A stretch of DNA of 64,000 bases from Acidobacteriota bacterium (lineage in GTDB: Bacteria > Acidobacteriota > UBA890 > WLXD01), in assembly GCA_012103255.1 (NCBI GenBank), contig WLXD01000005.1, positions 202,560 to 266,559 of the forward strand. Direction: 5' to 3'. This document shows positions 5,983 through 44,127 of this stretch, in pieces (within the stretch, counting starts at the first letter, position 1; each line of letters begins with the position of its first letter). Made by a program: the position numbers and the translations under genes. The notes beneath the pieces are model-generated. The model was not told where the DNA came from and made no database searches. It saw only the letters and a list, made by a program, of their open reading frames with translations.

Positions 5983-6438
5983 GTGGGCGCACGGCATCGC
6001 GGGCGCGAGCGCGCAGTCCAGGCACTCTACGAGTGGGCGGTCACGGGACGGCGCCTGGACACTACTTTCGAGCGTTTCTGGCGCGTGCGCGACGAGTCGG
6101 ATGATGTTCGTCGTTTCGCAGAGCGACTCGTGCGCGGGGTCGCCGACAGCGCGGAGCACATCGATCGCTTGATCGATCATCAGGCAGTGAACTGGCGGCT
6201 CGACCGATTCAGCAACGTCGATCGGAGCATTCTCCGCATCGCGATCTGGGAAATGCTCAACGAGCCGGACACACCGTCGGCGGTGGTCATCGATGAAGCC
6301 ATCGAGCTGGGCAAGAAGTTCAGCGGCCCGGCGGCGGGTCCGTTTATCAACGGAATCCTGGACGGAGTACGGAAACGGCTCGCCGAGGAACCCGCGACGG
6401 CCGAGATGGAACATACGAACGAGGCAGGGGACGGATGA
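5983..6438 (+). CDS. nusB: transcription antitermination factor NusB
   Basis: RERAVQALYEW...RLDRFSNVDRSILRIAIWEML is the NusB fold signature. It sits directly after ribH, the conserved ribH-nusB synteny. Confidence 0.9.
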   Translation: MGARHRGRERAVQALYEWAVTGRRLDTTFERFWRVRDESDDVRRFAERLVRGVADSAEHIDRLIDHQAVNWRLDRFSNVDRSILRIAIWEMLNEPDTPSAVVIDEAIELGKKFSGPAAGPFINGILDGVRKRLAEEPATAEMEHTNEAGDG

Positions 6439-9209
6439 GCGAGTATCGACCTGCGGAATTCGAAGAGAAGTGGCGCGAGCGATGGGAACGCGAGGGCGTT
6501 TACCGTAGCAAGGTGGACTGGGAGCGGCCGAAGCACTACGCGCTGACAATGCTTCCTTATCCCAGCGGGGATCTGCATCTCGGGCATTGGTTCGCCATGG
6601 TCCCGTCCGATGCCCGCGCGCGTTTCAAACGCATGAAGGGATTCAACGTGCTCTTCCCGATGGGCTTCGACGCCTTTGGCCTTCCGGCCGAGAATGCAGC
6701 GATCCAACGCGGCATTCATCCGTGGAAATGGACCTACGAGAACATCGAGAACATGCGGCGCCAGTTTCGCAGCATGGGCGCAATGTTCGACTGGGAACGC
6801 GAAGCGGTCAGTTGCACCCCGGAGTTCTATCGTTGGACGGAGTGGTTCTTCAATCGGTTCCTCGAAGGAGGCCTGGCCTATCGCGGTGAGGCCCTGGTGA
6901 ACTGGTCAGAGTCGCTGCAGACCGTATTGGCCAACGAGCAGGTCATCGACGGAAAGGACGAGCGAACGGGTCAACCCGTCGTCCAGAAGCTCATGTCCCA
7001 GTGGTTCTTTCGCATCACGCAGTATGCAGACGAACTGCTCGAGTTCGACGAGATGGACTGGCCCGAGGCTATCCGCAAAGCGCAGACGAACTGGATCGGT
7101 CGGAGCGAAGGAGCGCGCGTCGCCTTCACGATCGAAGGCGAGACGTCGATCGAGGTCTTCACCACGCGGCCCGACACGTTGTGGGGCGCGACCTTCATGG
7201 TGCTCGCGCCCGAACACGACCTTGTCGATCAGCTCACCAGCGAAGACCAGCGTGAGCAAATCGCCGAGTACGTGGCTGCGGCCGCGAAGGCGAGTGAGAT
7301 TGAACGCAGTGCTGAAGACCGCGAGAAAACGGGCGTCTTCACGGGGAGCTACGCGCAGAATCCGGCCAGCGGCGAGAAGATTCCGATCTGGATCGCAGAC
7401 TACGTAATGGTTGGCTACGGGACCGGCGCGATCATGGCGGTTCCGGCACATGACCAGCGCGACTTCGAGTTCGCGCGGAAGTTCGATCTTGAGGTGCGGC
7501 CGGTGATTACCAGCCCTGAGGGGGTCGTAGACGCCGCAGCCATGACCGAGGCATACGTTGGCGCAGGGGCGATGTTCAACAGTGGTCCGATCGACGGCAC
7601 TCGCTGCACCGACTCCAAGGGTCGGTCCAATCCGGCGATCGCGGCGGCGATCGAGTGGCTTGAGGATCATGAAGTCGGCCGCGAAGCGATCAACTATCGG
7701 CTGCGCGATTGGTTGATCAGCCGGCAGCGCTACTGGGGATGCCCGATTCCGGTCGTTCGACGGGCGGATGGTGAATACGAGACGGTCCCGGACGACTCCT
7801 TGCCGGTCGAATTGCCGCAGGACGTCGAATTCATGCCGACGGGCAGAAGTCCACTGAAGTCGAATTCTGACTTCATGGCCGCCGTGGCCAAGGACGGTGG
7901 CCCCGCGGAGCGCGAAACGGACACCATGGACACCTTCATGTGCTCCTCCTGGTACCAGTACCGGTATCTGAGTCCCGGATACGACGGGGCGCCGTTCGAC
8001 CCTGAGGAAGCCGCGTACTGGTTGCCTGTGGATACGTACACAGGCGGCGCAGAGCACGCGACCATGCACCTGCTCTACACCCGGTTCTTCACGAAGGCGA
8101 TGCGCGATCTCGGCATGTTCGAAGACGCCGCCACGGTGATGCGCCAGCGCGGCCGGGATCCTGGTCGGATTTTCGATGAACCCATGGTTGTGCTGCGTAA
8201 CCAGGGACAGGTTCTAGGCGGAGAGCGCTCGGGCGATGTGGTTCGCGCAACGGGGTCGACTGTCGGCAACGTGTTGCATGCAGATCGTGTGGAGGTCGTC
8301 GGCGACGCACCGGCATCTTGCGAGCCCGACGAGATGGTTGGCGAGATTATGCGGCGTACCGAGAACATTCTCACCCTCACGGCTCCGGATGGCGGTCTGA
8401 TGACGGTTGAGGTCGAGCCTGATGCAAGCATCGATATCCCCGGAATCGACGGGGTCAACTCGGTCGGGCAGCTGCGCCATCACCTCGAAGTCCAACGCAT
8501 GTCCAAGAGCAAGGGCAACGTCGTCAATCCCGACGTTTGGGTCGATCGGCACGGTGCCGATGTGCTCAGGGCCTATCTGATGTTCGGGTTTGACTGGGCG
8601 AAGGGAGGTCCGTTCGACAGCGGCGGAATGCAGGGGGTCGCGCGCTGGCTGCAGGACGTCTGGGCGATAGGTACGACCCCTCCGACCGGACCTGGTGATC
8701 CCGAGCAAGAGGCGATGATCGAGCGCCGTCTCCACCAGACGATCGAGCAGGTTGAGCGAGGGCTCGAGGAGTTCAGCTTCAACACAGCGATTGCCGCCCT
8801 GATGGCGTTCCGGAACGACCTCCGGGCGGCACTGCGCGAAGATCATCTCGGGGACGACGCCTGGCGCGCCACGATGGACGTGATGGTGCGGCTCCTCGGC
8901 CCGTTCGCTCCGCATACAGCCGAAGAACTCTGGGAGCGACTGGGCGGCGACTTCAGCGTGCACGCGCAGGAGTGGCCGGCCTACGATCCGGAGAAGGCGG
9001 CCGAAGATACGGTCACGCTGGTGGTTTTGGTGAATGGTAAAGTCCGGGATCGGGTGGACGTCGCGGCGGACGTCGGACAAGACGAGGCCAGAACTCTGGG
9101 ACTCGCCACGGAAGGCGCGCGTCGCTACATTGGCGACAGTGGACCGCGGAAGGTGATCTTCATTCCGGCACGCAAGGGTCAGGAACCGAAGCTCAACATC
9201 GTCGTTTGA
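6435..9209 (+). CDS. leuS: leucyl-tRNA synthetase
   Basis: A 924-aa class I aaRS. It has the HIGH-type motif (PYPSGDLHLGHW) and the KMSKS motif (QRMSKSKGNVV). It is an intact long ORF. Confidence 0.97.
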   Translation: MSEYRPAEFEEKWRERWEREGVYRSKVDWERPKHYALTMLPYPSGDLHLGHWFAMVPSDARARFKRMKGFNVLFPMGFDAFGLPAENAAIQRGIHPWKWTYENIENMRRQFRSMGAMFDWEREAVSCTPEFYRWTEWFFNRFLEGGLAYRGEALVNWSESLQTVLANEQVIDGKDERTGQPVVQKLMSQWFFRITQYADELLEFDEMDWPEAIRKAQTNWIGRSEGARVAFTIEGETSIEVFTTRPDTLWGATFMVLAPEHDLVDQLTSEDQREQIAEYVAAAAKASEIERSAEDREKTGVFTGSYAQNPASGEKIPIWIADYVMVGYGTGAIMAVPAHDQRDFEFARKFDLEVRPVITSPEGVVDAAAMTEAYVGAGAMFNSGPIDGTRCTDSKGRSNPAIAAAIEWLEDHEVGREAINYRLRDWLISRQRYWGCPIPVVRRADGEYETVPDDSLPVELPQDVEFMPTGRSPLKSNSDFMAAVAKDGGPAERETDTMDTFMCSSWYQYRYLSPGYDGAPFDPEEAAYWLPVDTYTGGAEHATMHLLYTRFFTKAMRDLGMFEDAATVMRQRGRDPGRIFDEPMVVLRNQGQVLGGERSGDVVRATGSTVGNVLHADRVEVVGDAPASCEPDEMVGEIMRRTENILTLTAPDGGLMTVEVEPDASIDIPGIDGVNSVGQLRHHLEVQRMSKSKGNVVNPDVWVDRHGADVLRAYLMFGFDWAKGGPFDSGGMQGVARWLQDVWAIGTTPPTGPGDPEQEAMIERRLHQTIEQVERGLEEFSFNTAIAALMAFRNDLRAALREDHLGDDAWRATMDVMVRLLGPFAPHTAEELWERLGGDFSVHAQEWPAYDPEKAAEDTVTLVVLVNGKVRDRVDVAADVGQDEARTLGLATEGARRYIGDSGPRKVIFIPARKGQEPKLNIVV

Positions 9210-9222
9210 CAGGAGTGCCTGG

Positions 9223-9759
9223 ATGTTCAGGAAAGTAGCCGGCTGGCGCAGCCGCGCGGTATTCCTGTTGGTCGCTCTGCTCAGCGTGGAGAGCTGCGGA
9301 TACTCACTGGTTGGCCAGGGGGCATTCCTACCTGACTACGTGCAGGTCGTTGCGATTCCCACGTTCGTTAACAACACACGACGATTCGAACTCGAAGTGC
9401 GTGTGACCGATGCGGTGACCCGGGAGTTCGTGTCACGCGGCAACTATCGCGTCGTCGGCCAGCAAAATGGTGCGGATGCTGTGCTCCTCGGTGAGATTCA
9501 GTCATTCGATGTGCGGCCGATCGGTTTGGATGAGCAAGAGGCAGCGGATACCTGGCAGGTCACGATTAGGGCCCGGGTGACGTTCCAGGACCTGGTGGCC
9601 AACAAGATCCTCTTCACGGCGAATAACTTCACCTATCAGGATCAGTTCGAGTTCCCGGCGACCGGGGCGGGGCAGATTGATATCGAAGTTGGCTCGATCG
9701 ACGAGATCTCGCAGGAGTTCGCAAGAGCTGTTGTTGCGAGCATTCTGGAAGGCTTCTAG
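9223..9759 (+). CDS. lptE: LPS-assembly lipoprotein LptE (RlpB)
   Basis: A signal peptide with a Cys (…LLSVESCGYSLVGQG) resembles E. coli LptE CGWHLRD. The size is about 178 aa. Its position between leuS and holA is the conserved leuS-lptE-holA order. Confidence 0.75.
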   Translation: MFRKVAGWRSRAVFLLVALLSVESCGYSLVGQGAFLPDYVQVVAIPTFVNNTRRFELEVRVTDAVTREFVSRGNYRVVGQQNGADAVLLGEIQSFDVRPIGLDEQEAADTWQVTIRARVTFQDLVANKILFTANNFTYQDQFEFPATGAGQIDIEVGSIDEISQEFARAVVASILEGF

Positions 9760-9791
9760 CCCGGCACGCAGGGCACAGAGCAAGGAGCGGT

Positions 9792-10859
9792 ATGGCCCGA
9801 CGAGGTCAGAAGGCGGCGGGGATCACGTTGCCCGCCCTCAGGAAGGCAGTTGCAGCGGACGATGTCGCCCCGGTGTATCTGCTCCTTGGCGAAGAGCCGG
9901 CGCTGCGACGGCGCGCTACCGAATGCCTGAGAACCCTCGTTGACGATGGCGAGTCACCCGGTGCGATAGTTCAGATCGACGGGAGTCGGGCGACGCTGGC
10001 AGAGATCGTCGACGAGGCCAGGTCGCTGCCGCTCTTCAGCTTGATGGCCGAAGGCGTCGTGCGGATAGTCACGGTGCCGAACTTCGACAAGCTTCTCGGC
10101 AGCGATGAAACTGAAGAATTCCTCGCGTACCTGGCCGATCCGGTTGGCGCGACGTGCGTTGTTCTGGAAGCTGACAAGGTCGACAAGCGGAAGACGTTGT
10201 ACAAGGCCGTTGCGAAAACTGCTGTCATTGTCGACTGTGCCCCGCCCACGTCGGAACGAGACGTCTCGATCTGGATCGAGGCGACGCTGCGCAACGCCGG
10301 TTACTCAATCGAGCCCGACGCGGTGGCGTATCTACTGCAGATGGCCGGTACCCGACTCACCGTGCTCGAGCAGGAAATCGAGAAAGCCATGCTGTACGTC
10401 GGCGAGAGCGGGACCGTGCGGGCAGCGGACCTCGAGGGCATCATGGGGCGCACGCGGGAGCACTCGGTCTTCGAGCTCACCGACGCGCTCGTAAAAGGGG
10501 ATCAGGAGTCGGCGCTGCGACTGCTGAACATCCTGCTCGACGATGGTGAGTCTCCGATCGGCGTGTTGGCCATGATCGGCTGGATCTGCCGGCAACTCGT
10601 CGTGGCCGGGGATCTGGTTGCTTCGGGAATCCCGCGCAAAGAAGCCATGCAAGGGATCGCCGGGCGATGGCAGCAGCGCGGCGAAATACTCGATCGCGCT
10701 CGACGAGCGTCACGCGGTGCGCTCGCACGCACTTTGATCGGGTGCGCCGAGGCAGACCTGTTCATCAAACGGATGCGTGATGCTCGGCTGGGTGCGGACA
10801 GACTACGTCCCGCACGGGGCAGATTGGAGGCGCTGTGCCGTCAGATCTGTGCCGCGTAG
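9792..10859 (+). CDS. holA: DNA polymerase III delta subunit
   Basis: The 355-aa protein begins ...PVYLLLGEEPALRR..., a delta-subunit-like N-terminus. It occupies the expected position after lptE. Confidence 0.75.
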   Translation: MARRGQKAAGITLPALRKAVAADDVAPVYLLLGEEPALRRRATECLRTLVDDGESPGAIVQIDGSRATLAEIVDEARSLPLFSLMAEGVVRIVTVPNFDKLLGSDETEEFLAYLADPVGATCVVLEADKVDKRKTLYKAVAKTAVIVDCAPPTSERDVSIWIEATLRNAGYSIEPDAVAYLLQMAGTRLTVLEQEIEKAMLYVGESGTVRAADLEGIMGRTREHSVFELTDALVKGDQESALRLLNILLDDGESPIGVLAMIGWICRQLVVAGDLVASGIPRKEAMQGIAGRWQQRGEILDRARRASRGALARTLIGCAEADLFIKRMRDARLGADRLRPARGRLEALCRQICAA

Positions 10860-10866
10860 GGCAGGC

Positions 10867-11136
10867 TCAGCTCGATTCGAGCTTGCTGATCCGGCGCGAG
10901 AGTCGCGCCTTCTTGCGGGCAGCCTGATTCCGGTGAATCACGCCGCGCTGCGCAGTCCTATCGAGAAGAGACTGGGCCGCAGTCCAGCTTTCGCGGATGC
11001 GGTCCATGTCACCGGCCTCGATGGCTTCATCAAGCTTCCGAAGCGAGGTGCGGAGAGCGGAACGGCTACCGCGGTTGCGGTCGCGGCGCACCACGCTCTG
11101 GCGCATACGCTTCTTAGCAGAGGCAATATTGGGCAT
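10867..11136 (-). CDS. rpsT: 30S ribosomal protein S20
   Basis: MPNIASAKKRMRQSVVRRDRNRGSRS... matches S20 (E. coli MANIKSAKKRAIQ...). The start is moved to ATG 11136; the ORF track starts at 11160. Confidence 0.9.
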   Translation of the reverse strand: MPNIASAKKRMRQSVVRRDRNRGSRSALRTSLRKLDEAIEAGDMDRIRESWTAAQSLLDRTAQRGVIHRNQAARKKARLSRRISKLESS

Positions 11137-11275
11137 TGGGTTCGAGATCTCCTTAGACAAACGCTCGAATGTGGAAGGTTAGGATGAGCGTCGGCGGCCG
11201 TCAAACGTCTATTTGCGCAAAAAGGGTACGGGGTCGAAGCGCGTCGTCGGGCCCTAACTTCCGCGCGAGGTTGCG

Positions 11276-12889
11276 TTGAGTAAGACAGGCACCGACCAGA
11301 CCGGCAGATTGCTCCGAGCGGCCGGCACCGTGGGCGGAATGACTCTAGTGTCGCGAGTTCTCGGATTGGTTAGGGATATCGCTCAGTCCACCTTGCTGGG
11401 TGCCGGGGTTGCTGCGGATGCCTGGTACGCGGCCTTCGTGTTGCCCAGCACGCTACGACGGCTGGTCGGCGAGGGAAACATCTCCGCCGCGTTCATACCC
11501 GTCCTGGCTCGTCAATCTGCCGAGCACGGTGATGAGCGTGCACGCGAGCTGTCGTCGAAGTTCTTCACCGTTGTACTCGTTGCCGCGAGTGGCCTGAGCG
11601 TGATTGGGATCCTGGGCGCTCGCGGGATCGTCTGGGTCATGTACTCCGGCTACGCGGCCGTGCCCGGGAAGTTCGAGCTAACGGTGGATCTCACTCGCGC
11701 GGTGTTCGGCTACCTGCTGTTCATTTCACTGACAGCGGTCTTGATGGGGATCTTGAATGCCCGGCAGAGGTTCGCCGCCGCAGCATTTACCCCGGTGCTC
11801 CTGAATATCGCGCTGATCGCCGCGGCCTTCCTCGCCTGGGGCGAGCTACCGGAGACGGCTGTCTGGGTAATCGCTGGCGGCGCGATGGTCGGAGGGGTTC
11901 TGCAGTTCCTATTCCTGGTTCCCTTTGTCCGCCGATTCGGGGTTTCGCTGCGACCATCATGGCCGCTCGGTGATCGAGGCGTCTCGGAGATCGGGCGGCT
12001 CATGATCCCCGGGGTGGTCGGCGCCAGCGTGGTGCAGATCAATATCCTGGTGGGGCGATCGCTGGCCAGCGATCTGCCTGAGGGAACGATGACGTCCCTC
12101 TACTTCGCATCGCGTGTGAATGAACTCACGCTCGGCGTGTTCGCGGTTGCGGTCGCCACCGTCGTGTTGCCGTTGATGTCTCAGCAGGGCGCGGCCGGAG
12201 ACACCGCCCAGCTTCGGGGAACACTGGGATTTGCACTCCGCCAGGTCACGGCGGTGACGCTTCCTGCAGCCGTCGGGATCATGGTTCTGCGTCACGACAT
12301 CATCGCCACGCTTTTCGAGTACGGGCAGTTCTCGGCCGGAGCGACAGCCCTTACGGCGGCGGCCGTTTGGGGGTATGCATGGGGACTAGTGGCCACGGCG
12401 GGGGTCCGGATCGCGGTGCAGTCTTTCTATGCGATGCGGGATACACGCACACCGGTGATCGTCGCGACGGGGTCGATGGTGGTCAACGTGGTCGGTTGCG
12501 TGCTACTGCGCGGGCCCCTCGAGAATGCCGGCATCGCGCTCGCCAACTCGATCGCGGCGGCATTCTCGCTGGCAGTGCTCCTGTGGTTGCTGCGCGGAAA
12601 GCTGGGCGGTCTCCCGCTTCGTGAGCCTCTCGCGAGCTTTACCCGGGCTGGTGTCGCCGCTGCGGTGATGGCCGCCGTGTTGCTGGGAATTCGAGATTCC
12701 CTGATCGTTGCTGACAGCGGTGTCGTTGAGGCCTGGGTTCGGCTTTTCACTGTCGTGCTCGTCGGTGGGATGGTCTATCTGGCGGGGCTTGCGGTTCTGC
12801 GAGCTCCGGAAATCGCCGAACTGCGACAAATTGGACGGCGACAGGCGCCTGCTACTCTGGTTGGCGGATCCACCGAAGAGGAGCGGTAG
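11276..12889 (+). CDS. murJ: lipid II flippase MurJ (MviN)
   Basis: It has the MurJ N-terminal signature ...RVLGLVRDIAQSTLLGAG...DAWYAAFVLPSTLRRLVGEGNISAAFIPVLA and 12-14 predicted TM helices. The start is TTG. Confidence 0.9.
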   Translation: MSKTGTDQTGRLLRAAGTVGGMTLVSRVLGLVRDIAQSTLLGAGVAADAWYAAFVLPSTLRRLVGEGNISAAFIPVLARQSAEHGDERARELSSKFFTVVLVAASGLSVIGILGARGIVWVMYSGYAAVPGKFELTVDLTRAVFGYLLFISLTAVLMGILNARQRFAAAAFTPVLLNIALIAAAFLAWGELPETAVWVIAGGAMVGGVLQFLFLVPFVRRFGVSLRPSWPLGDRGVSEIGRLMIPGVVGASVVQINILVGRSLASDLPEGTMTSLYFASRVNELTLGVFAVAVATVVLPLMSQQGAAGDTAQLRGTLGFALRQVTAVTLPAAVGIMVLRHDIIATLFEYGQFSAGATALTAAAVWGYAWGLVATAGVRIAVQSFYAMRDTRTPVIVATGSMVVNVVGCVLLRGPLENAGIALANSIAAAFSLAVLLWLLRGKLGGLPLREPLASFTRAGVAAAVMAAVLLGIRDSLIVADSGVVEAWVRLFTVVLVGGMVYLAGLAVLRAPEIAELRQIGRRQAPATLVGGSTEEER

Positions 12890-15643: not shown

Positions 15644-16816
15644 ATGGACAATCAGACGTTTCTTCTGACCTCCGAATCCGTCACCGAAGGGCACCCGGAC
15701 AAAATCGCGGATCAGGTGTCCGACTCGGTGCTCGACGCCATCATGGCGGAGGATCCGACGGGTCGTGTGGCGTGCGAGACCATGGTCACGACCGGTATCG
15801 CGATCGTTGCCGGTGAGATCACCACCAACGCGTACGTCGACATCCCGAGCATCGTGCGCAAGACGATTCGCGAGATCGGGTACACCCGCTCGGAATTCGG
15901 CTTCGACGCCGACACGTGCGGTGTGATGACGAGCATCGACGAGCAGTCGCCGGACATCGCGATGGGCGTGGATCCCGGCGGCGCAGGCGATCAGGGTTTG
16001 ATGTTCGGCTACGCTTCGGTGGAAACCGAAGAGCTGATGCCCATGCCGATCAAGCTGGCGCACGGTCTCTGCCGCCAGCTCTCGACCGTGCGCAAGGACG
16101 ACACGCTCGACTACCTGCGGCCTGATGGCAAGGCTCAGGTCACCGTCGAGTATGTAGACGGTCGACCCCACCGCGTGGATTCAGTGGTGGTCAGCACGCA
16201 ACATGGCGAGGAAGTCTCCCTTGGCGTGATCCAGGAAGATCTTCTCGAGAAGGTCGTGAAGCCGGTCGTTCCGGAAGAGCTGCGTGACGAGAACACCAAG
16301 TACCACATCAACCCCACGGGTCGCTTTGTTGTTGGCGGCCCGCAGGGTGACTGTGGGCTCACAGGCCGGAAGATCATCGTCGATACCTACGGCGGTGTCG
16401 GAAGCCACGGCGGTGGTGCGTTCTCGGGCAAGGACTGCACAAAGGTCGACCGCACGGCGTCCTACATGGCCCGCTACGTGGTGAAGAATCTCGTGGCGGC
16501 GGGCGTTGCGGAGCGACTTGAGCTTCAGCTCGCCTACGCGATCGGCGTTGCCGATCCGGTTTCGGTGATGGTGAACGCACGTGGAACCGGGCGCGTCGAT
16601 GAGGCGCGGATCGTCGAGGCAGTGCGCGAGATCTTCCCACTGACCCCGAAGGGGATGATCGAACACCTGGATCTGCGGCGTCCGATCTATCGTGAGACCG
16701 CGGCGTACGGTCACTTTGGTCGTGAAGGCTTCCCGTGGGAGGCCACCAATCTGGCCGACGACGTCCGGCGCTTCCTGGACCTTTCGGAAGCCGACATGCC
16801 CGGCGGAGCGGCCTAG
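15644..16816 (+). CDS. metK: S-adenosylmethionine synthetase
   Basis: [22 protein letters not shown] ... [10 protein letters not shown] ... GGGAFSGKD is the canonical MetK. Confidence 0.95.
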
Positions 16817-16829
16817 TTCTTCGCCGCCT

Positions 16830-19175
16830 CTAGGTTCTGACGCCGATAGCCTGGTACGTCCCTAGAGATAGGAACAACAGGTGTGGCGCCCATGCCGACA
16901 GAGGCGGCGGCAGTTGGTTCGCGTAGCCGAGAGCCTGGAAGACGCCGAACGCGATCCAGTAGGCGGCTACGAGTGCGACTGCGACGGCCACGCCCGTAAG
17001 CGTGCCGTGGCGGCCCATTCGGAATGCGAATGGAAGGCCGACCACGGTCATGACAAACACGATGGCCGGCGTGGCGATCTTCTGATGAAAGTCGACCAGC
17101 GCTCGGTGGGTTTCGTAGCCCTGCCGCTCGAGCAATTGAATGTGTCGACGCAGATCGAGCAGGCGCATCTGTTCAGGTAGCAGCTCGTTCTCGCGGAAAT
17201 ATTCCGGGTCGCGTTCCAGGTGCCCCATGCGGGCGAAACTGAACTCCTCGAGCGGTGACGGCTTGACCCGGTCGCCTTCACGGACGAAGAAGCGTCGCCA
17301 GCCGTCGCGAGCCTCCCAGGTGCCCTCGCGCCACTCGGCGATATCAGCGAACTCCATCCGAGCCATCGAGTTCTCGTCGCCAAGATAGAAGACCCGCAGA
17401 CCCAGGAACTGCGAGCTCGACTCCACGAATTCGTCGAAGTGGTAGACCACGTTGCCCTCGGCGAACACCCAGTTCTGCGACTGCAGCAGAATGACTGTGT
17501 CCGACGGGTCCATTGCTTCCTCGACCACCTTGGCTTGCTCAGCCGTGTACGGCAGCACGTACTCCTGGAGGGCGTACTGCCCCGCGGTGAGCAGGAGTGC
17601 CGGGACAAAGATCGGGACCATCAGTCGATAGAGGCTCACCCCGCCTGCCATGGCGGCCACGACCTCGCCGTGCTTCGCCATGAGACTGAAGACGGCCAAC
17701 ACCGTAACGACCGCAGCCATCGGCGTGATGTCGAAGACGATCTCCCACACGTAGTAGCTCAAGAAGGTGGGGATCAAGCCGGGATTGGTTACGTAGGACG
17801 CCTTGTCGATCCAGGTGCCCATGATGAACAGAACGATGAAGGCCGAGAACGTGAGCCCGTAGATGCTCAAGTAGTTGCGCATCACGAGCCTGTCGAGCGT
17901 CCGCGGGAAGGACGCACCGGTGTGGCTGGAGCGGAGCCGCACGGAACGGTGCAGAACACGCTTCGAGTACCAAGCGCGCAGGCCGTCCGCTGCCTGGAGC
18001 CAGATGGGCTCGATACGCCGCCATATGCCGAAGTCGACTTCGCGACTCTTCTTCCAGAGCAGCACGAGGGCTGCGATGGCCAGCACGACGTTGCCAGCCC
18101 AGATTCCCACGATTGGTGAGATCTGCCCCAGATCAGCTTGTTGTTCGCCGTTCTGCGCGAAGAAGTAGTACACGGCGATCACCACGATGCCGATAGCGAA
18201 CCCGCTTGCCGTTGTCTGTCTCTGAGTTGAGATGCCCAGCGGAAGCGCGATGAGGCCCATCACGATGCAGGCGAAGGGAAGCGCAAACTTCTTCTGGACC
18301 TCGACCCGCAGATCCCACGCCGGCTCGCCATTCGAATGACGCGCCGCGATCGCTGTGCGTAGTTCCGAGAGGTTCATCGAGCGAACGTCCTTGCCGAGCT
18401 CTCCGATGAAGGTGTTCTCTTCAGACCACACGAGTTCGCTGCGCGACTCGAACTCGGTCAGTGTCACGTCCGCCGGGTCGGCTCGCGATGCAATGACGAC
18501 CCCGTTGACCATCTCGATGTATGTCCGACGGTTCTCGGCATCGATCCGGGGGTAGGCGCGCTCTGCGCGGAGAATCGTCGGCGGATTCGAGTCCGTTCGC
18601 GCCGTAAACACACCGCGCCACTCGCTACCTTGATTGACGATGTCCTCGACGTAGAGGACAAGGTTCGGGAAGTCGTTGTTGAAGACGCGAGGTTTGACCT
18701 CGTTGGACAGCGCTCCGCCCTCGGCGATCTGTTCCCACTGAATCTCCACGAGTGATTGATTGCCCCAAGGCATCATCACGGTGTAGATCCAGCTTGTCGC
18801 TCCCCACAGTAGAGCGGACGCGATGAGTACCGGCGGCAGTAGGTGAAGCAGGCTGACCCCCGCGGCGCGAAGCGCGACGATTTCGAAGTCCGCCGACATT
18901 CTGCCGAAGGCGATCAACGAACCGACGAGGAGCCCCATTGGGATGGTCAGAACCATGATGTGAGGCAGGCTGTAGACGATGACCCACAACACGCTACTGA
19001 GCTCGGCGCCGTACTCGATCCACAGCTGCGAGACGCGGAGTAGCGCGCGCATCAGAAAGAGGAACGTGAAGACACAGAACGCCAGCAGGGTGGGGGTCAG
19101 GAGTTCGAGGATCACGTGGCGCCACAGGATCAATGCGGGACGCGCTCTGAGGATGGACGCCGCGGCTGCGCTCAT
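16830..19175 (-). CDS. fused LptF-LptG-type LPS export permease (two YjgP/YjgQ domains in one polypeptide)
   Basis: The start is moved to ATG 19175 (MSAAAASILRARPALILWRHVILELL...). The first half carries a YjgP/YjgQ-like TM segment (RHVILELLTPTLLAFCVFTFLFLMRALLRVSQLW). The second half (RLVMRNYLSIYGLTFSAFIVLFIMGTWID...) repeats the same domain. The ATG overlaps the stop of the upstream GT2 gene (ATGA). Confidence 0.75.
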   Translation of the reverse strand: MSAAAASILRARPALILWRHVILELLTPTLLAFCVFTFLFLMRALLRVSQLWIEYGAELSSVLWVIVYSLPHIMVLTIPMGLLVGSLIAFGRMSADFEIVALRAAGVSLLHLLPPVLIASALLWGATSWIYTVMMPWGNQSLVEIQWEQIAEGGALSNEVKPRVFNNDFPNLVLYVEDIVNQGSEWRGVFTARTDSNPPTILRAERAYPRIDAENRRTYIEMVNGVVIASRADPADVTLTEFESRSELVWSEENTFIGELGKDVRSMNLSELRTAIAARHSNGEPAWDLRVEVQKKFALPFACIVMGLIALPLGISTQRQTTASGFAIGIVVIAVYYFFAQNGEQQADLGQISPIVGIWAGNVVLAIAALVLLWKKSREVDFGIWRRIEPIWLQAADGLRAWYSKRVLHRSVRLRSSHTGASFPRTLDRLVMRNYLSIYGLTFSAFIVLFIMGTWIDKASYVTNPGLIPTFLSYYVWEIVFDITPMAAVVTVLAVFSLMAKHGEVVAAMAGGVSLYRLMVPIFVPALLLTAGQYALQEYVLPYTAEQAKVVEEAMDPSDTVILLQSQNWVFAEGNVVYHFDEFVESSSQFLGLRVFYLGDENSMARMEFADIAEWREGTWEARDGWRRFFVREGDRVKPSPLEEFSFARMGHLERDPEYFRENELLPEQMRLLDLRRHIQLLERQGYETHRALVDFHQKIATPAIVFVMTVVGLPFAFRMGRHGTLTGVAVAVALVAAYWIAFGVFQALGYANQLPPPLSAWAPHLLFLSLGTYQAIGVRT

Positions 19176-19855
19176 CGGGATGCCTCGTAGAAGCGCGCGA
19201 GAGTTAGTGGGCTCATGCCGAGCGCGTGGGCCGCGCGCAGGAGCCACATCTTCAGGATGGTCCGGACCGGGCCACATTGCTCCCAGCGGCGAGCCGACGT
19301 GACGACGGTGTCGTTGAGCCGCGCGACCCTGCCGGTGCGTCGCAGTTGAGCGCTAAACTGGACGTCTTCGAAGAGCGGCAACGGCGGGAACCCGCCGAGG
19401 TGGTCGAAAACGTCTCGCCGGACGAACATGGCCTGATCGCCTGTCGCAATCCCGGTCAGCCGACTACGGATCGTGATCATGCGGCCGATAAGGCCGAGAA
19501 GAGGGCGAACCGAGTTGAGTCGCAGCCGAAAGAATCCGCCTGAGGCACCATCATCAATGGCGGCACGGATGCTCTTGAGAGCCCCTGCGGGCAGTTCGGT
19601 GTCGGCGTGAAGAAACAGAATGATCTCTCCGTCGCCCAAGGCGGCACCCGCGTTCATCTGACTGGCGCGGCCTCGAGGAGCTGCGGCGTAGGGGAGTCCT
19701 GAGCTGCGCAGGGCGCTAGCGGTTCCATCCGTGCTCATGCCGTCGACGATCACGACGTCGGTCGCGGCCGCGGCATGCATGTCACGGAGTCGATCGAGCA
19801 AGAGCGGCAGAGCGCTCGACTCGTTGTGTACGGGGACCACGACGTTTACGCGCAA
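19172..19855 (-). CDS. family-2 glycosyltransferase (GT-A fold)
   Basis: Only the C-terminal ~230 aa of the 540-aa ORF-track entry is protein-like: RVNVVVPVHNESSALPLLLDRL ... DVVIVDGMSTDGT ... ILFLHADTELP. The upstream part is antisense to rnz. The start is tentatively TTG 19855; an alternative is ATG 19969. The stop TGA overlaps the LptFG start. Confidence 0.6.
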   Translation of the reverse strand: MRVNVVVPVHNESSALPLLLDRLRDMHAAAATDVVIVDGMSTDGTASALRSSGLPYAAAPRGRASQMNAGAALGDGEIILFLHADTELPAGALKSIRAAIDDGASGGFFRLRLNSVRPLLGLIGRMITIRSRLTGIATGDQAMFVRRDVFDHLGGFPPLPLFEDVQFSAQLRRTGRVARLNDTVVTSARRWEQCGPVRTILKMWLLRAAHALGMSPLTLARFYEASR

Positions 19856-19978
19856 GACGATCCGCAGCGTTGGTGGAGGAATGTGCCGGATGCGGCACGC
19901 TGTGATTCTAGCAGTCACCGCTGGGGCAGTCCGTGACGACACGCCCGGATCGAGGGGGTGCGTTACCATCCGGCGATC

Positions 19979-20878
19979 ATGTTTCGGGCCGTAGTTCTGG
20001 GCAGCGGCGCTTCGCTGCCAACGCTCCAACGCCAGACTGCCGCTGTGGCGGTGCAGTATGAAGGCGACGTCTATCTGTTTGATTGCGGCGAAGGCACGCA
20101 GTTGCAGTGGCGTCGCGCCGCGCTGCGCTTTGGGCGACTGCGTGGGATCTTCATCTCGCATCTGCACGGCGACCACCTGAACGGTCTGGTAGGCCTTCTG
20201 CAGACGCTCTCGCTGGGCGATCGGGACGAGCCGCTTCGTCTTTTCGGGCCGCCCGGAATCGAGGCCTACTGGAAGGCGATCCAGCGCTATCAGGGCGTTC
20301 GACTCGGCTATCCTCTCGAGATTGTCGAGAGCGAAGGCGGGGTTCTCGTCGAAGGGCGCGGCCATGCGATCGAGTGCGCTCTGCTCGATCACGGCATACG
20401 GACGCTGGGCTTTCGACTGGCCGAGGACGAACGACCCGGGCGCTTCGACCCGGTCGAAGCCGAACGTCTCGGGGTGGCGCCGGGCCCGGACTTCGGGCGG
20501 CTTCAGAGCGGGGAGGCCGTTGACGGGACGTCCGGGACGGTCTTGCCGGAACAGGTGATGGGACCAGCCCGTCCGGGTCGGAGCGTCGCATACACCGCGG
20601 ATACCCGGGCTTGTCCGGCAGTTGTAAAACTGGCGCACCAGACGACGCTGTTCCTCTGTGACTCCACATTCGGTTCGGAGCTCGAACGCGAAGCCGCGGC
20701 GCGTGGGCATTGCACCGCCGCGCAGGCCGCTCGGATGGCTCATGAGGCCGGAGCGGAAAGGCTCGTCTTGACCCACATCTCTGCCCGCTACCACGACACG
20801 CGACCGCTGCGCGCCGAGGCCCGGGAGATCTTCAAGAACACCGAGGTCGCCAGAGACCTCATGGAGTACGGGCTATGA
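19979..20878 (+). CDS. rnz: ribonuclease Z
   Basis: MFRAVVLGSGASLPT ... FDCGEGTQ ... ISHLHGDHLNGLVGLL is the RNase Z (ElaC short form) signature. The ORF track starts at 19958, 7 codons upstream. Confidence 0.85.
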   Translation: MFRAVVLGSGASLPTLQRQTAAVAVQYEGDVYLFDCGEGTQLQWRRAALRFGRLRGIFISHLHGDHLNGLVGLLQTLSLGDRDEPLRLFGPPGIEAYWKAIQRYQGVRLGYPLEIVESEGGVLVEGRGHAIECALLDHGIRTLGFRLAEDERPGRFDPVEAERLGVAPGPDFGRLQSGEAVDGTSGTVLPEQVMGPARPGRSVAYTADTRACPAVVKLAHQTTLFLCDSTFGSELEREAAARGHCTAAQAARMAHEAGAERLVLTHISARYHDTRPLRAEAREIFKNTEVARDLMEYGL

Positions 20879-23791: not shown

Positions 23792-25423
23792 CAGGGAGCC
23801 TCGCCCCCGGGTGTGCGCGCGCGGCGGTACAGCCGGTCGAGGTCAGCAACGGTACTGATGTCGTCGATCTCGAGGTCCTGCCGCCAGCGGACAATGCGTG
23901 GAAACCGAAGGGCGAAGCCTGCGGGATGGCGCCGACTTATTTGCACATCGTCGAACGCGACCTCGAGAACGATGTCGGGGTGTACCCGGCGCACCGACCC
24001 TGTGGTGCGCTAGCGTGTTGTCCTTGAAATGGTCGGTTAGCTCGCGGATCTGCTGATCCGTCAGGCCGCTGTAGGCACGCCCGGCGTCGATCAACTCGCC
24101 CTCCTGCCGTACTGCGAAGATCAGGTCCGAGAGCATCCCGGCGCGCTTGCCTCGGCCCCACTCCGCGCCCGTGACGACTACATCCAGAGTTCCGAGTGGC
24201 CGCTTGAGTTTCACCCACGCCCGCCCACGCCGACCAGGTTGGTAGGTGCTCCCGGGAAGTTTGAACACAGAGCCCTCATCACCGGCACCTGTCGCCGCCT
24301 CGAATGCCTCGGTAACACTCTGGCGGCCCTCGATCTCTTCCCACGGCGCCCGGCGGACGGGCCCGTCATAGGGAAGCACGCCCGAGAAATTCCTTGCGTT
24401 GCGTGAGCGGTTGGTCGATCAGGTCTTCGCCGTCGGCTCGAAGGGCGTCGAAGGCCAGGAACACGACGGGAGCATCGAGGAGCAGCGTGAGTGGCACCTC
24501 CTTACGTCCGAGGCGCCTCTGCAGCGTGCCGAAGGAAAGCGCTTGTCCCTCGTACCAGGCAACAACCTCGCCGTCGAGGATCCACTCGCCGGACATTCCT
24601 GGTGGCGTCATTCGGACCTCGGGGAAGAAGTGTGTGAAGTCCTCGAGCGCTCGGGAGTAGACGCGGACCACACCATCGCGAAGGTGCCACTGAGCCCGAA
24701 TGCCATCGTATTTGTGTTCGGCGACAATCGGGCCCTGCAGGAGTTGGCACACCTCTTCAGCCGATGTGGCTGGATTGGCGAGCATGACGTGAATGGGTCG
24801 ATGTGCTCGAAGTGTGATGTCACGGAGTGCGTTCGTGGCGGCACGCTCTGCAGTTGTGCCGATGTCACCGAGGAGCATGTGAGCTCGGCGAATGTCGTCG
24901 AGCGGCCTCGCAAACGCCATCGCGAGCGCCTCTTCCACGCGCGCGGCCTGCATGCCGGTTCGCAGCGATCCGAGGAGGAGCTTGGTGAGATACTTGGCCT
25001 CCATGGGGGTGGCCCGCTGGTACAGACCGCGCAGGCGTCGTCCGCGGTGCATGCGGGCCAAGCTCGCCGAGCTCTGCGAGCGACACAGCGACCTCGTCCA
25101 GGCGTAGCTGTTCTACCTCCGGCCGTTCGATGCCGGCCAGAATTTCTGCCACGGCGACGCCCAGGTCGCCGCGCGTGGTTGCCTTGCGCAGCAATGTTGT
25201 GCGCTCCGCGCCACTGAACGCCGCGACGATATCGACGACCGTAGGACCGTCCGACTTTCGTCGCCGGCGTACCGCGGGGCAGGGGAGTGCCGGCAAGGAA
25301 ACGAGCCGCGACCGCCACGGTTCCCTGCGGCTGGCTGGCCAGGTAGGCAGCTGCTGCCTGCACCTTGTTTTCGGTGCTCGTGTGGCCCGCAATCGTCTCG
25401 AACGTGAGAGCAAGAGCTCGCAT
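23791..25423 (-). pseudogene. ATP-dependent DNA ligase (LigB-type, ~540 aa) broken into at least five reading-frame segments
   Basis: The ligase-like segments lie in different frames. In order along the minus strand they are:
- N-terminal DNA-binding-domain-like MRALALTFETIAGHTSTENKVQAAAAYL... (frame of ORF 24608..25579).
- ...PTVVDIVAAFSGAERTTLL... (frame of ORF 24865..25413).
- The adenylation domain with the KxDGxR motif EHKYDGIRAQ, plus YLTKLLLGSLRTG (ORF 24366..25061).
- The OB domain with RAWVKLK and LDVVVTGAEWGRGKRAG (ORF 23843..24379).
- The C-terminal FALRFPRIVRWR (ORF 23791..23994). Confidence 0.7.
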
Positions 25424-42789: not shown

Positions 42790-42800
42790 TGGATTGGCTC

Positions 42801-43625
42801 CTAGAACAGCACCAGCGATCTGGGTGTTACGCGCGTGGTGAGTTGAATGGTGGGCAGGCCGTCTCCGGCAAGGCGAGGGCCCTCAGTGCGGACATCCAAG
42901 CGGGCTTCGATGACCCGGATGAGCAACTGCTGAGCCGTACCGGTTGGGCTGAACTGCGCGGGCGGGACGGCGTTGTCGAAGAACGTGAAGCTCACTTGCG
43001 TCAGGTTTCTGGCGACGACTGCGCCGCTCCCTCCGTCGACTTCGCGGATCAAGTCGAAGATGCCGCCGCCCGCATCCTGCGCGCGGTACGAAACCGTCTG
43101 CACCACGGCCGCCGCCGCGCCATCATCCGGTGAATAGAGCTTGCTGAGTCCCGCGTGGGAGATCGTGTCCGGCCCGGTAGTGAGACCGGTGATCTGGACC
43201 ATGTCGATACTGCCGGTGGCGTCGTAGACCGCGATGAACTGCCCAATCGCGAACTGCGCGGCGTCGTCGACCACTAGCGCATCGGTCGTGCTGGCCATGG
43301 CGGTTGTCACGAACGTGGTGACTTGCCCACGATTTACGCGCATGTCGATGCCACCGTCGACGCGCGGCACGATAATCGGGAAGGGAGGTTGGAGGCGCGA
43401 GAGTCCGACTCCTGCCACCTGCAGGTCGCGCTGTACCTGTTCGAGCGCGATCCGCGCTGTCTGCTGGGCGTCGATCTTCGCTGCCGCATCTTCATAGTTG
43501 TCGCGAGTTGTTCCGAACAGCGTCGACACCCCGCCCAAGAGCATCAAGAACAGGGCGCTAGCGATCATCGCCTCGATGAGACTGAAACCTGCTTCGCTCG
43601 GGCGATGGTTAACGGAGATCTGCAC
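42801..43625 (-). CDS. type IV minor (pseudo)pilin, PilW-like
   Basis: The prepilin-peptidase motif G|FSLIEAMIASALFLMLLGG is present. The start is tentatively GTG 43625 (leader MQISVNHRPSEAG); the ORF track starts at 43688. Confidence 0.6.
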   Translation of the reverse strand: MQISVNHRPSEAGFSLIEAMIASALFLMLLGGVSTLFGTTRDNYEDAAAKIDAQQTARIALEQVQRDLQVAGVGLSRLQPPFPIIVPRVDGGIDMRVNRGQVTTFVTTAMASTTDALVVDDAAQFAIGQFIAVYDATGSIDMVQITGLTTGPDTISHAGLSKLYSPDDGAAAAVVQTVSYRAQDAGGGIFDLIREVDGGSGAVVARNLTQVSFTFFDNAVPPAQFSPTGTAQQLLIRVIEARLDVRTEGPRLAGDGLPTIQLTTRVTPRSLVLF

Positions 43626-44049
43626 GGAACGTCTCCACTCGGACTTCTCGGGTCGGACCGACAACGGAATTGCGTTCGCCGGCCACAAGAATGATGCGTT
43701 TCAAGATCGCCGACTCATCGGCGACCTCCCACCGGACATAGCGATCGGCGTCGCCGCCGTGGGGATCCTCCGAATAGCCTGTTACCGAGGTGGCGACACC
43801 ACCCCCGGCCGCCAGGGCGGGATCGTCGAACGGCAGTGCTGCGAGGTACTCCAGTCGGTCACTCGCGGCCACCGAGAGCTCGGTGGCGTCTTGAGCTGCC
43901 GACGACGTCAACGCCCCCATCATGAGCATCGGCGTGATCGCTAGGGCCAGGAACGACAGCAACATCATGGCCACGACAAGTTCGAGCAGCGACATCCCGT
44001 CGCCTGCGGCGTGCGCCGATGAGGGGGGTCTGATTGCTGAGCGGTCCAT
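43609..44049 (-). CDS. type IV minor (pseudo)pilin, PilV/GspH-like
   Basis: The leader ends in G, followed by MSLLELVVAMMLLSF (class III signal, Glu5). The protein is 146 aa. Confidence 0.6.
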   Translation of the reverse strand: MDRSAIRPPSSAHAAGDGMSLLELVVAMMLLSFLALAITPMLMMGALTSSAAQDATELSVAASDRLEYLAALPFDDPALAAGGGVATSVTGYSEDPHGGDADRYVRWEVADESAILKRIILVAGERNSVVGPTREVRVETFRADLR

Positions 44050-44100
44050 GTCGTTACTCCCGGCGGTTGACCCGAGGTTTCGGGCGCAGCCTGACTGAAC

Positions 44101-44127
44101 CTAGTGCAGGCACATGGGGTGCACTAG
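44101..44127. promoter_or_regulatory. 8-bp perfect inverted repeat CTAGTGCA-N11-TGCACTAG in the divergent pilin / O-antigen-ligase promoter region
   Basis: ctagtgcaggcacatggggtgcactag lies ~55 nt upstream of the PilV-like start (minus strand). It is divergent from the O-antigen-ligase-family gene. Confidence 0.3.

What the first reader, a model, noticed from the sequence alone, without database searches (positions are those of the whole stretch)
16830..19855. Fused LptF-LptG permease translationally coupled to a GT2 glycosyltransferase
LptF and LptG are normally two separate ~360-aa proteins. Here a single ~780-aa ORF carries two YjgP/YjgQ-type domains in tandem. Its ATG is embedded in the stop of an upstream family-2 glycosyltransferase (cgATGAgc, 19172-19175). 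This implies co-expression of an LPS/glycolipid-modifying transferase with the inner-membrane LPS extraction machinery. No lptB is adjacent. The operon is divergent from rnz.
Basis: partly seen in the sequence, partly recalled or inferred. Interest (0 to 1): 0.5.

Follow-up and report, generated by a model that had tools for sequence, protein, structure and literature searches.

The report
Fused LptF-LptG lipopolysaccharide export permease
An Acidobacteriota genome encodes the two membrane subunits of the lipopolysaccharide extractor (LptF and LptG) as one 781-residue protein, an arrangement found in every retrieved Acidobacteriota relative and already named in databases, and its start codon overlaps the stop codon of an upstream glycosyltransferase gene whose link to lipopolysaccharide is unproven.

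Summary
Window 16830-19175 (-) is one 781-aa ORF. Its N-half scores best as LptF and its C-half best as LptG. The predicted fold matches only LptF and LptG chains. Both glutamates that couple to LptB are present and invariant among fused homologs. The fusion is not an assembly artefact. The identical protein lies on 21 independently assembled contigs. All 118 full-length protein clusters among the best 120, and all 80 best genome loci of at least 597, are fused in the same order. These come from Thermoanaerobaculia, Aminicenantes, Holophagales and Vicinamibacterales. Databases already call it 'LptF/LptG'. I found no paper describing it, and one phylogenomic study reports lptF and lptG as apparently lacking in Acidobacteria.

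The upstream gene (19172-19855, -) is a 227-aa TIGR04283-family GT2. The ATGA overlap is real. An NTGA overlap is conserved in seven related taxa, so co-expression is plausible. The pairing is confined to that sublineage. Elsewhere TIGR04283 genes sit beside TIGR04282 and ArsS genes, and fused lptFG sits behind groEL or parB-like genes. 'LPS-modifying transferase' is therefore unsupported. Absence of an adjacent lptB is normal. This is a catalogued but uncharacterised variant of a known transporter, of modest interest.

The parts
16830..19175 (-). lptFG: one ORF of 781 aa (stop TAG at 16830-16832) encoding a fused LptF-LptG permease
   Evidence: ORF and sequence. Pfam PF03739 matches twice with 469 bits. 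TIGR04407 scores 305.7 and TIGR04408 scores 327.9 bits on the whole protein. The AF2 model has pLDDT 80.5 and pTM 0.71. Foldseek hits with E<=0.1 are only LptF and LptG chains.
18045..19175 (-). LptF-like half (aa 1-377): three TM helices, a coupling helix, a beta-jellyroll (about aa 165-251) and three more TM helices
   Evidence: LptF scores 216.8 bits against 146.7 for LptG. PDB LptF chains align aa 16-375 to chain residues 2-349.
18882..18884 (-). GAA codon for E98, the equivalent of the LptF E84 coupling-helix glutamate that contacts LptB
   Evidence: Ungapped alignment to K. pneumoniae LptF (5l75_F) places query residue 98 on chain residue 84. The residue is invariant in 24 fused homologues. 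The role of E84 is from my own knowledge of the LptB2FG literature.
17901..18044 (-). Cytoplasmic linker (aa 378-425) joining TM6 of the LptF half to TM1 of the LptG half
   Evidence: AF2 gives a helix at 384-412 and a low-confidence stretch at 409-421. In 24 homologues the linker is 47-97 aa, poorly conserved, and K+R exceeds D+E in 23 of 24, as the positive-inside rule predicts.
16833..17900 (-). LptG-like half (aa 426-781): three TM helices, a coupling helix, a beta-jellyroll (about aa 569-649) and three more TM helices
   Evidence: LptG scores 193.6 bits against 101.4 for LptF. PDB LptG chains align aa 436-774.
17664..17666 (-). GAG codon for E504, the equivalent of the LptG E88 coupling-helix glutamate
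   Evidence: Alignment to Enterobacter cloacae LptG (6mit_G) places C-half residue 96 on chain residue 88. The residue is invariant in 24 fused homologues.
19172..19175 (-). ATGA: the lptFG start codon overlaps the GT2 stop codon by 4 nt. A GAGG lies 7 nt upstream of the ATG.
   Evidence: Sequence. An in-frame NTGA overlap is present in all seven related taxa: ATGA in five, TTGA in L006 and GTGA in L084/L085.
19172..19855 (-). GT2 gene, 227 aa with a TTG start, a member of family TIGR04283
   Evidence: TIGR04283 scores 238.9 bits against a cutoff of 182, covering the model end to end. Pfam Glycos_transf_2 also matches. Orthologues share the N-terminus, and the putative DxD-type motifs D38/D43 and H83-A84-D85 are invariant.
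19856..19957 (.). Divergent intergenic region between GT2 and rnz, the presumed promoter region for GT2-lptFG
   Evidence: This is inferred from gene layout. The sigma-70 consensus scan found nothing. Relatives align to rnz only from residues 3-8, so its true start may be the ATG at 19979.
19958..20878 (+). rnz (RNase Z / metallo-beta-lactamase), divergent neighbour
   Evidence: Pfam Lactamase_B_2, Lactamase_B and the tRNase Z domain match. The gene is conserved next to the pair in L005, L006, L007, L012 and L084/85.
15644..16816 (+). metK, convergent neighbour whose stop lies 13 nt from the lptFG stop
   Evidence: Pfam S-AdoMet synthetase domains match. The convergent lptFG/metK pair is also conserved in more distant Acidobacteriota.
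9223..9759 (+). lptE, the outer-membrane Lpt component, in a leuS-lptE-holA arrangement. It is supporting context that an Lpt pathway exists.
   Evidence: A precomputed Pfam PF04390 LptE hit lies on the identical locus L001 19417-19953, between leuS and holA. NCBIfam gave no hit.

Best explanation
The locus is a two-gene unit, GT2 followed by lptFG.

The second gene encodes a single-chain version of the LptF/LptG transmembrane pair of the LptB2FG lipopolysaccharide extractor. The cytoplasmic C-terminus of an LptF-type subunit (6 TM helices and a periplasmic beta-jellyroll) is joined to the cytoplasmic N-terminus of an LptG-type subunit by a basic, poorly conserved linker of about 48 residues. 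The result is a pseudo-heterodimer with 12 TM helices. Each half keeps its coupling helix and the conserved glutamate. The protein should therefore dock two copies of an LptB ATPase encoded elsewhere. It should extract LPS from the inner membrane into the Lpt bridge towards LptDE, and lptE lies 7 kb away. The inferred effect of the fusion is to fix the 1:1 F:G stoichiometry and pairing.

The fusion arose from paralogues that had already diverged, not from a recent duplication. It is the form seen in every Acidobacteriota relative retrieved.

In this sublineage a TIGR04283-family GT2 gene was placed directly upstream. The lptFG start overlaps its stop (NTGA). The two genes are most likely co-transcribed from the rnz-GT2 intergenic region, with lptFG translated by termination-reinitiation coupling.

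The architecture, homology, conservation and overlap are shown. Co-transcription, coupling, the LptB partnership and LPS as cargo are inferred. Whether the GT2 has any role in LPS is unknown, and I judge the juxtaposition more likely to be operon happenstance than a pathway link.
For: Domain identity and order.

Fold: the AF2 model has pLDDT 80.5 and the expected pattern of helices, strands and helices repeated twice. Foldseek hits with E<=0.1 are exclusively LptF and LptG chains, with target TM-scores of 0.6-0.9.

Coupling glutamates: E98 and E504 align to LptF E84 and LptG E88 and are invariant in 24 homologues.

Origin of the halves: they are only 24% identical to each other.

Linker: it is basic and variable in length.

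Reality and spread: 21 contigs carry the identical protein. Of the best 120 protein clusters, 118 are 754-842 aa and cover 96-100% of the query. The best 80 genome loci of at least 597 are all collinear fusions from several Acidobacteriota classes.

Lpt context: lptE, murJ and a Wzy_C-family gene lie in the window.

Overlap: it is conserved in seven taxa whose fused proteins are 38-79% identical to the window's.
Against: No lptB, lptC, lptA or lptD is in the window (and the Pfam surveys). The partners are therefore assumed.

Scored alone, each half falls just below the curated equivalog cutoff: 216.8 against 230 for LptF and 193.6 against 240 for LptG.

No consensus promoter or terminator was found.

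Some relatives have alternative in-frame starts downstream of the overlap, so use of the overlapping start is not proven.

The GT2-lptFG pairing is absent from most fused-lptFG lineages and from most TIGR04283 loci. This argues against a necessary functional link.
Confidence: 0.78

Rival explanations
1. The GT2 and the fused permease form a functional module. The GT2 makes or decorates the glycolipid (LPS, or another lipid-linked glycan) that the permease exports, and the conserved translational coupling keeps the two in balance.
For: The NTGA start/stop overlap and the same-strand adjacency are conserved in seven taxa, down to 38% LptFG identity. In this clade lptFG occupies the position immediately downstream of the GT2. 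In other TIGR04283 loci that position is usually held by the partner TIGR04282 (40 of 60 loci). The GT2 has weak similarity to polyprenyl-phosphate glycosyltransferases such as ArnC (E from 4e-4 to 3e-7).
Against: TIGR04283 genes normally accompany TIGR04282 and ArsS, not envelope genes. Only 2 of the 80 closest metagenomic GT2 loci have lptFG downstream. Seventy-five of the 80 fused-lptFG genome loci have no such GT2; their upstream genes are groEL, parB-like and others. The clade's GT2s (49-64% identical to the window's) are no more divergent than unlinked family members (42-55%), so there is no sign of neofunctionalisation. Four-nt overlaps between functionally unrelated genes are common in GC-rich operons (my own knowledge).
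Confidence: 0.12
2. The fused permease does not move LPS. It moves another lipid or glycolipid, as proposed for Lpt-like fusion proteins in organisms without LPS.
For: Each half alone scores below the NCBIfam equivalog cutoffs. Identity to characterised LptF and LptG is low, at 15-20% in the structural alignments. A Thermotoga Lpt-like fusion permease has been proposed to move non-LPS lipids (PMC10160955).
Against: Acidobacteria are classed as true LPS diderms (PMC8871954). lptE lies in the classical leuS-lptE-holA position, and a Wzy_C/O-antigen-ligase-family gene is present in the window. Both halves cover the LptF and LptG models end to end. No other LptF/G-type gene was seen in the window that could serve as the real extractor.
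Confidence: 0.07
3. The long ORF is an artefact, either a missed stop or frameshift merging two normal genes, or a recent tandem duplication of one gene.
For: Another gene in this window, an ATP-dependent DNA ligase at 23843-25061, does show frame breaks. Indels or pseudogenes therefore exist in this assembly.
Against: The identical 781-aa product lies on 21 contigs from separate assemblies. All of the best 80 genome loci from different species read through the junction in one frame. The halves are 24% identical and score differentially as LptF and LptG, with margins of 70 and 92 bits.
Confidence: 0.01

Closest known systems
LptB2FG(C) lipopolysaccharide extractor of Proteobacteria (E. coli, K. 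pneumoniae, P. aeruginosa, A. baylyi; e.g. PDB 5l75, 5x5y, 6mhu, 8frl)
   Same: The family is the same (PF03739). Each half has six TM helices and a beta-jellyroll. The coupling-helix glutamates equivalent to LptF E84 and LptG E88 are present. The N-half resembles LptF and the C-half resembles LptG. lptB is unlinked.
   Different: Here F and G form one polypeptide joined by a basic cytoplasmic linker of about 48 aa, not two proteins of about 360 aa. Sequence identity to the solved chains is only 15-20%. Each half alone scores below the NCBIfam equivalog cutoffs.
Fused LptF/LptG proteins of other Acidobacteriota (Thermoanaerobaculia, Aminicenantes, Holophagales, Vicinamibacterales; named 'LptF/LptG' in IMG and 'LptF/LptG family permease' in NCBI, e.g. 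NKB89873.1)
   Same: The architecture and domain order are identical and the proteins are 754-842 aa long. The window protein is itself deposited as NKB89873.1, with an alternative 815-aa start.
   Different: Only the window's sublineage has the TIGR04283 GT2 gene overlapping the start. Others have groEL, parB-like or unrelated genes upstream.
Thermotoga maritima G4FGC1, a putative ABC permease with LptF/G-, LptA- and LptD-like domains (PMC10160955)
   Same: It is a published precedent for Lpt components fused into one polypeptide.
   Different: Different domains are fused there (permease, bridge and outer-membrane-like parts). The organism lacks LPS, and it is not a tandem F-G fusion.
TIGR04283 glycosyltransferases in ArsS / TIGR04282 ('arsenosugar biosynthesis') clusters
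   Same: The window GT2 matches the model end to end above the cutoff, at 238.9 against 182 bits. It is 42-55% identical to metagenomic members.
   Different: The usual partners are absent from the window and from the ±8-kb flanks of the syntenic loci. These partners are TIGR04282 directly downstream in 40 of 60 loci, ArsS, and a family of membrane proteins of about 280 aa that gave no NCBIfam hit (I labelled it TVP38-like by eye only). lptFG takes the downstream position instead.
Single-chain ABC permeases such as E. coli FhuB, with two homologous permease halves in one protein (recalled from memory, not tested here)
   Same: The principle is the same: two transmembrane domains of an ABC transporter are fused and serve two copies of a separately encoded ATPase.
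   Different: The transporter fold is unrelated (a type II importer), as are the substrate and the direction of transport.

Membership tests
LptF/LptG permease family (Pfam PF03739) | A significant match to the family model. For the fusion claim, two matches in tandem. | tested here: met
   The score is 469.2 bits against a cutoff of 27.9, in two stretches. The first covers aa 19-375 and model positions 1-353 of 353.
LptF (NCBIfam TIGR04407 equivalog) | Score at or above the curated cutoff of 230 bits | tested here: inconclusive
   The whole protein scores 305.7 bits and passes. The N-half alone scores 216.8 bits, below 230, although it covers the model end to end (2-347 of 347) and beats LptG by 70 bits.
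LptG (NCBIfam TIGR04408 equivalog) | Score at or above the curated cutoff of 240 bits | tested here: inconclusive
   The whole protein scores 327.9 bits and passes. The C-half alone scores 193.6 bits, below 240, although it covers the model end to end (1-346 of 351) and beats LptF by 92 bits.
LptB2FG transmembrane subunits | Six TM helices with a periplasmic beta-jellyroll between TM3 and TM4, in each subunit | tested here: met
   AF2 secondary structure shows helices 3-152, strands 165-251 and helices 287-377. The pattern repeats as helices 426-555, strands 569-649 and helices 690-778. Foldseek target TM-scores are 0.6-0.9 to LptF and LptG chains only. Hydropathy peaks agree, except that the last helix falls below my threshold.
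LptB2FG transmembrane subunits | Coupling helix with the conserved glutamate that docks into LptB (E. coli LptF E84 and LptG E88) | tested here: met
   E98 aligns to chain residue 84 of 5l75_F. E504 aligns to chain residue 88 of 6mit_G. Both are invariant in 24 fused homologues.
LptB2FG transporter | Association with an LptB ATPase dimer, and with LptC and LptA, and actual LPS extraction | not testable with these tools
   No ABC ATPase gene lies in the 64-kb window.
TIGR04283 glycosyltransferase family (GT2) | Score at or above the curated cutoff of 182 bits over the full model | tested here: met
   The score is 238.9 bits, with aa 4-223 on model positions 2-221 of 221. Orthologues in L004, L007 and L012 score 236-262 bits.
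ArsS / TIGR04282 / TIGR04283 'arsenosugar biosynthesis' gene cluster | GT gene adjacent to TIGR04282 and/or the radical-SAM gene arsS (TIGR04167) | tested here: not met
   tblastn with TIGR04282, ArsS and upstream membrane-protein ('TVP38-like', my label by eye) examples found nothing in the window or in L001-L083. By contrast, 40 of 60 informative metagenomic GT2 loci have TIGR04282 directly downstream. The probe identities were confirmed. These genes could still lie elsewhere in the genome.
Translationally coupled gene pair | Same strand, with the stop of the upstream gene overlapping the start of the downstream gene, conserved in relatives | tested here: met
   ATGA lies at 19175-19172. An NTGA overlap is present in all seven related taxa. 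Actual coupling during translation was not tested.

The most novel reading that the evidence does not exclude
The single-chain LptFG may be the ancestral, phylum-wide form of the LPS extractor in Acidobacteriota. That could explain why a published phylogenomic survey scored lptF and lptG as 'apparently lacking' in this LPS-diderm phylum. In the window's sublineage, a TIGR04283 glycosyltransferase may have been recruited from its usual ArsS/TIGR04282 context into an obligatorily coupled operon with the extractor, in order to modify the exported glycolipid.
Probability: 0.1. Interest if true: 0.55.

Novelty: new variant of a known kind. Interest (0 to 1): 0.27.

Why it matters
A natural single-chain LptFG could be a convenient object for structural and biochemical work. 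Its stoichiometry is fixed, and the two halves can be mutated asymmetrically without co-expression. It is also a clean phylogenetic marker for Acidobacteriota. It warns that presence/absence surveys based on one-domain orthologue detection may miss it: one such survey lists lptF and lptG as apparently lacking in Acidobacteria (PMC8871954). The GT2 coupling, if functional, would point to a lineage-specific envelope modification. On present evidence it is only a conserved operon junction. None of this overturns what is known about Lpt transport.

Tried and rejected
- Artefact or frameshift: rejected. Twenty-one contigs carry the identical protein, and the best 80 genome loci and 118 of the best 120 protein clusters read through the junction.
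- Recent internal duplication: rejected. The halves are 24% identical and score differentially as LptF and LptG.
- The longer 815-aa start at 19277, used by NCBI in NKB89873.1: disfavoured. Close homologues are 780-791 aa. The extra 34 residues would overlap the conserved C-terminal coding region of the GT2. The ATG at 19175 has a GAGG 7 nt upstream, and the NTGA overlap is conserved.
- The 523-540-aa 'GT2' ORF called on Logan contigs: rejected as an antisense read-through across the real rnz gene.
- Arsenosugar-cluster context for the GT2: searched for and not found locally.
- Consensus promoter and terminator scan: uninformative, with 0 promoters and 1 terminator-like site, no more than in shuffled sequence.
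- Rfam and tRNA scans of the window: nothing found.
- Literature searches for a described LptF-LptG fusion: nothing specific found. Searches on TIGR04283 function found nothing useful.
- Not attempted: the exhaustive representative-protein search, a second structure prediction (of the GT2), and a whole-genome search for lptB.
Full report
**1. What is in the sequence**

On the minus strand an ORF runs to the TAG stop at 16830-16832. From the ATG at 19175 it encodes 781 aa. An upstream in-frame ATG at 19277 would give 815 aa. Bases 19175-19172 read ATGA on the minus strand. The ATG is the start of the long ORF, and the TGA is the stop of a 227-aa ORF that begins at the TTG at 19855. The window has 63% G+C.

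**2. Identity of the long ORF**

- Pfam finds PF03739 (LptF_LptG) twice, with 469 bits.
- NCBIfam scores the whole protein above both equivalog cutoffs: LptG 327.9 bits and LptF 305.7 bits.
- Scored separately, the N-half (aa 1-408) gives LptF 216.8 against LptG 146.7 bits. The C-half gives LptG 193.6 against LptF 101.4 bits. All of these matches cover the models end to end.
- Each half alone falls slightly below the curated cutoffs of 230 and 240 bits. I report that as an inconclusive equivalog test rather than a pass.
- Against PDB sequences, aa 16-375 align to LptF chains and aa 436-774 to LptG chains.
- The two halves are only 24% identical to each other. This is a fusion of paralogues that had already diverged, in F-then-G order, not a recent duplication.

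**3. Structure**

An AF2 model built on 24 fused homologues has mean pLDDT 80.5 and pTM 0.71. It shows helices 3-152, strands 165-251 and helices 287-377. A helix at 384-412 and a low-confidence stretch at 409-421 follow. The same pattern then repeats: helices 426-555, strands 569-649 and helices 690-778. That corresponds to two copies of six TM helices with a beta-jellyroll.

Foldseek against the PDB returns only LptF and LptG chains at E<=0.1. The best E-value is 7.5e-15 and target TM-scores are 0.6-0.9.

The coupling-helix glutamates are present. E98 aligns to residue 84 of K. pneumoniae LptF. E504 aligns to residue 88 of Enterobacter LptG. Both are invariant in the 24-sequence alignment. 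Both halves should therefore still dock an LptB protomer. This last step is an inference from the known LptB2FG mechanism.

The linker (aa 378-425) is 47-97 aa long in homologues and poorly conserved. K+R exceeds D+E in 23 of the 24 homologues, as expected for a cytoplasmic loop.

**4. Is the fusion real, and how common is it?**

- The identical 781-aa product lies on 21 contigs from separate assemblies.
- Of the best 120 homologous protein clusters, 118 are 754-842 aa and cover 96-100% of the query. The two exceptions are a 622-aa sequence with 80% coverage and an 867-aa sequence with 45% coverage. Several clusters are labelled 'LptF/LptG' by IMG.
- NCBI holds this very gene as NKB89873.1, 'LptF/LptG family permease [Acidobacteria bacterium]', using the 815-aa start.
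- A scan of one genome per species found at least 597 loci. The best 80 are all collinear fusions. They come from Thermoanaerobaculia, Aminicenantes, Holophagales, Vicinamibacterales, Multivoraceae and unclassified Acidobacteriota. A few MAGs carry other labels that I could not verify.
- The relatives therefore do not have split lptF and lptG genes. The fusion was the only form among the Acidobacteriota relatives retrieved.
- I found no paper describing it.
- Léonard et al. [quoted passage not shown] The fused architecture may explain that result. This is my inference.

**5. The upstream gene**

It is a GT2 of family TIGR04283, scoring 238.9 bits against a cutoff of 182 over the full model. 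Orthologues share the N-terminus MRxxVVVP, which supports the TTG start at 19855. They also share invariant putative DxD-type motifs.

The 523-540-aa version of this ORF called on some public contigs is an antisense artefact. It runs across rnz (19958-20878, +), which is a genuine metallo-beta-lactamase/tRNase Z gene.

Among the 80 closest metagenomic relatives of the GT2 (42-55% identity), only L084 and L085 have lptFG downstream, and these two are one taxon. Of the 60 loci with enough downstream sequence, 40 have a TIGR04282-family gene immediately downstream. Several have the radical-SAM gene arsS (TIGR04167) upstream. None of these partners is in the window or in the syntenic genome loci.

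The GT2 thus belongs by sequence to a family that NCBI names 'arsenosugar biosynthesis glycosyltransferase'. Here it sits outside that context. Nothing ties it to LPS.

**6. The junction**

GT2-lptFG adjacency occurs in 5 of the 80 genome loci: L004, L005, L006, L007 and L012. Their fused proteins are 38-79% identical to the window's. The flanking synteny is thioesterase and rnz on one side and metK on the other. The adjacency also occurs in L084/85.

In all seven taxa an in-frame start codon overlaps the GT2 stop as NTGA. It is ATGA in five, TTGA in L006 and GTGA in L084/85. This holds although the N-terminal extension of the permease varies in length. Gene callers chose the overlapping start for L012, giving a 791-aa product (P0010). 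This conservation supports co-expression and probable termination-reinitiation coupling. Some loci also have alternative starts downstream, so the coupling remains an inference.

In other lineages the gene upstream of fused lptFG is groEL (Aminicenantes), a parB-like gene, or something unrelated. These were identified by eye from the translations. The convergent lptFG/metK pair is more widely conserved.

**7. Context**

- The window carries leuS-lptE-holA, murJ and a Wzy_C-family gene. This is consistent with an LPS-producing diderm.
- No ABC ATPase lies in the 64 kb. That is unremarkable. PMC8871954 notes that in Proteobacteria lptFG and lptABC lie at two loci.
- No Rfam family, tRNA, consensus promoter or convincing terminator was found.

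**8. Verdict**

The fusion and the overlap are real and conserved. However, the fusion is the form seen in all the relatives retrieved and is already catalogued. The 'LPS-modifying transferase' reading of the GT2 is unsupported.

The most likely mechanism is a single-chain LptFG that serves an LptB dimer encoded elsewhere. In this sublineage it is expressed from a two-gene operon behind an orphan TIGR04283 glycosyltransferase.

The novelty is modest. This is an uncharacterised architectural variant of a well-known transporter. Interest is about 0.27.

Noticed in passing
window 23843-25061 (-): An ATP-dependent DNA ligase gene (Pfam DNA_ligase_A_N/M/C on the identical locus L001) is broken across three reading frames, which means at least two frameshifts. 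Public gene calls split it differently, as 228 + 178 aa on one contig and as 257 aa on another. It is either a pseudogene or carries assembly indels.
   Followed up: partly
window 19172-20794 (-) versus 19958-20878 (+): A 540-aa ORF extends the GT2 frame antisense across rnz. Gene callers on the Logan contigs report a 523-aa 'Glycos_transf_2' protein and omit rnz altogether. rnz is the real gene and the GT2 is 227 aa.
   Followed up: yes
window 19175 versus 19277 (-): NCBI's deposited protein NKB89873.1 uses the upstream ATG, giving 815 aa and a 106-nt overlap with the GT2. Homologue lengths, the conserved NTGA overlap and a GAGG 7 nt upstream favour the 781-aa start.
   Followed up: yes
window 6435-12889 (+): leuS, lptE, holA and murJ lie on the + strand, with rpsT (about 10867-11160) on the - strand between holA and murJ. 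The leuS-lptE-holA order is the same as I recall for E. coli. lptE is recognised only by a precomputed Pfam hit (PF04390) and gave no NCBIfam hit.
   Followed up: partly
window 41026-45659: A possible surface-polysaccharide or pilin group. It comprises a 587-aa protein with a weak HpsA-like match (41026-42789, -), a protein with a prepilin N-methylation motif (42801-43688, -) and a Wzy_C/O-antigen-ligase-family membrane protein (44217-45659, +).
   Followed up: no
L004 4471-7321: In the closest genome relative (79% LptFG identity) about 2.8 kb is inserted between rnz and the GT2, yet the GT2-lptFG ATGA overlap is kept. The pair therefore travels as a unit independently of rnz.
   Followed up: no
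L040, L041, L048, L052, L060, L067, L072 (about 10430-11600 in each): The convergent lptFG/metK arrangement is conserved in distant Acidobacteriota that lack the GT2. Five of them, all except L052 and L072, have a parB-like gene upstream of lptFG. In Aminicenantes the upstream gene is groEL.
   Followed up: partly
literature: PMC8871954, section 3.4: [quoted passage not shown] The fused single gene found here in every retrieved Acidobacteriota relative may be why it was missed.
   Followed up: partly
L042, L050, L056, L062, L073 and several 'uncultured Eubacteriales' loci: Some fused-lptFG loci come from MAGs labelled Polyangiaceae, Acidimicrobiia, Smithella, Desulfaltia or Eubacteriales. This is either mislabelling or mis-binning, or the fusion exists outside Acidobacteriota.
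   Followed up: no
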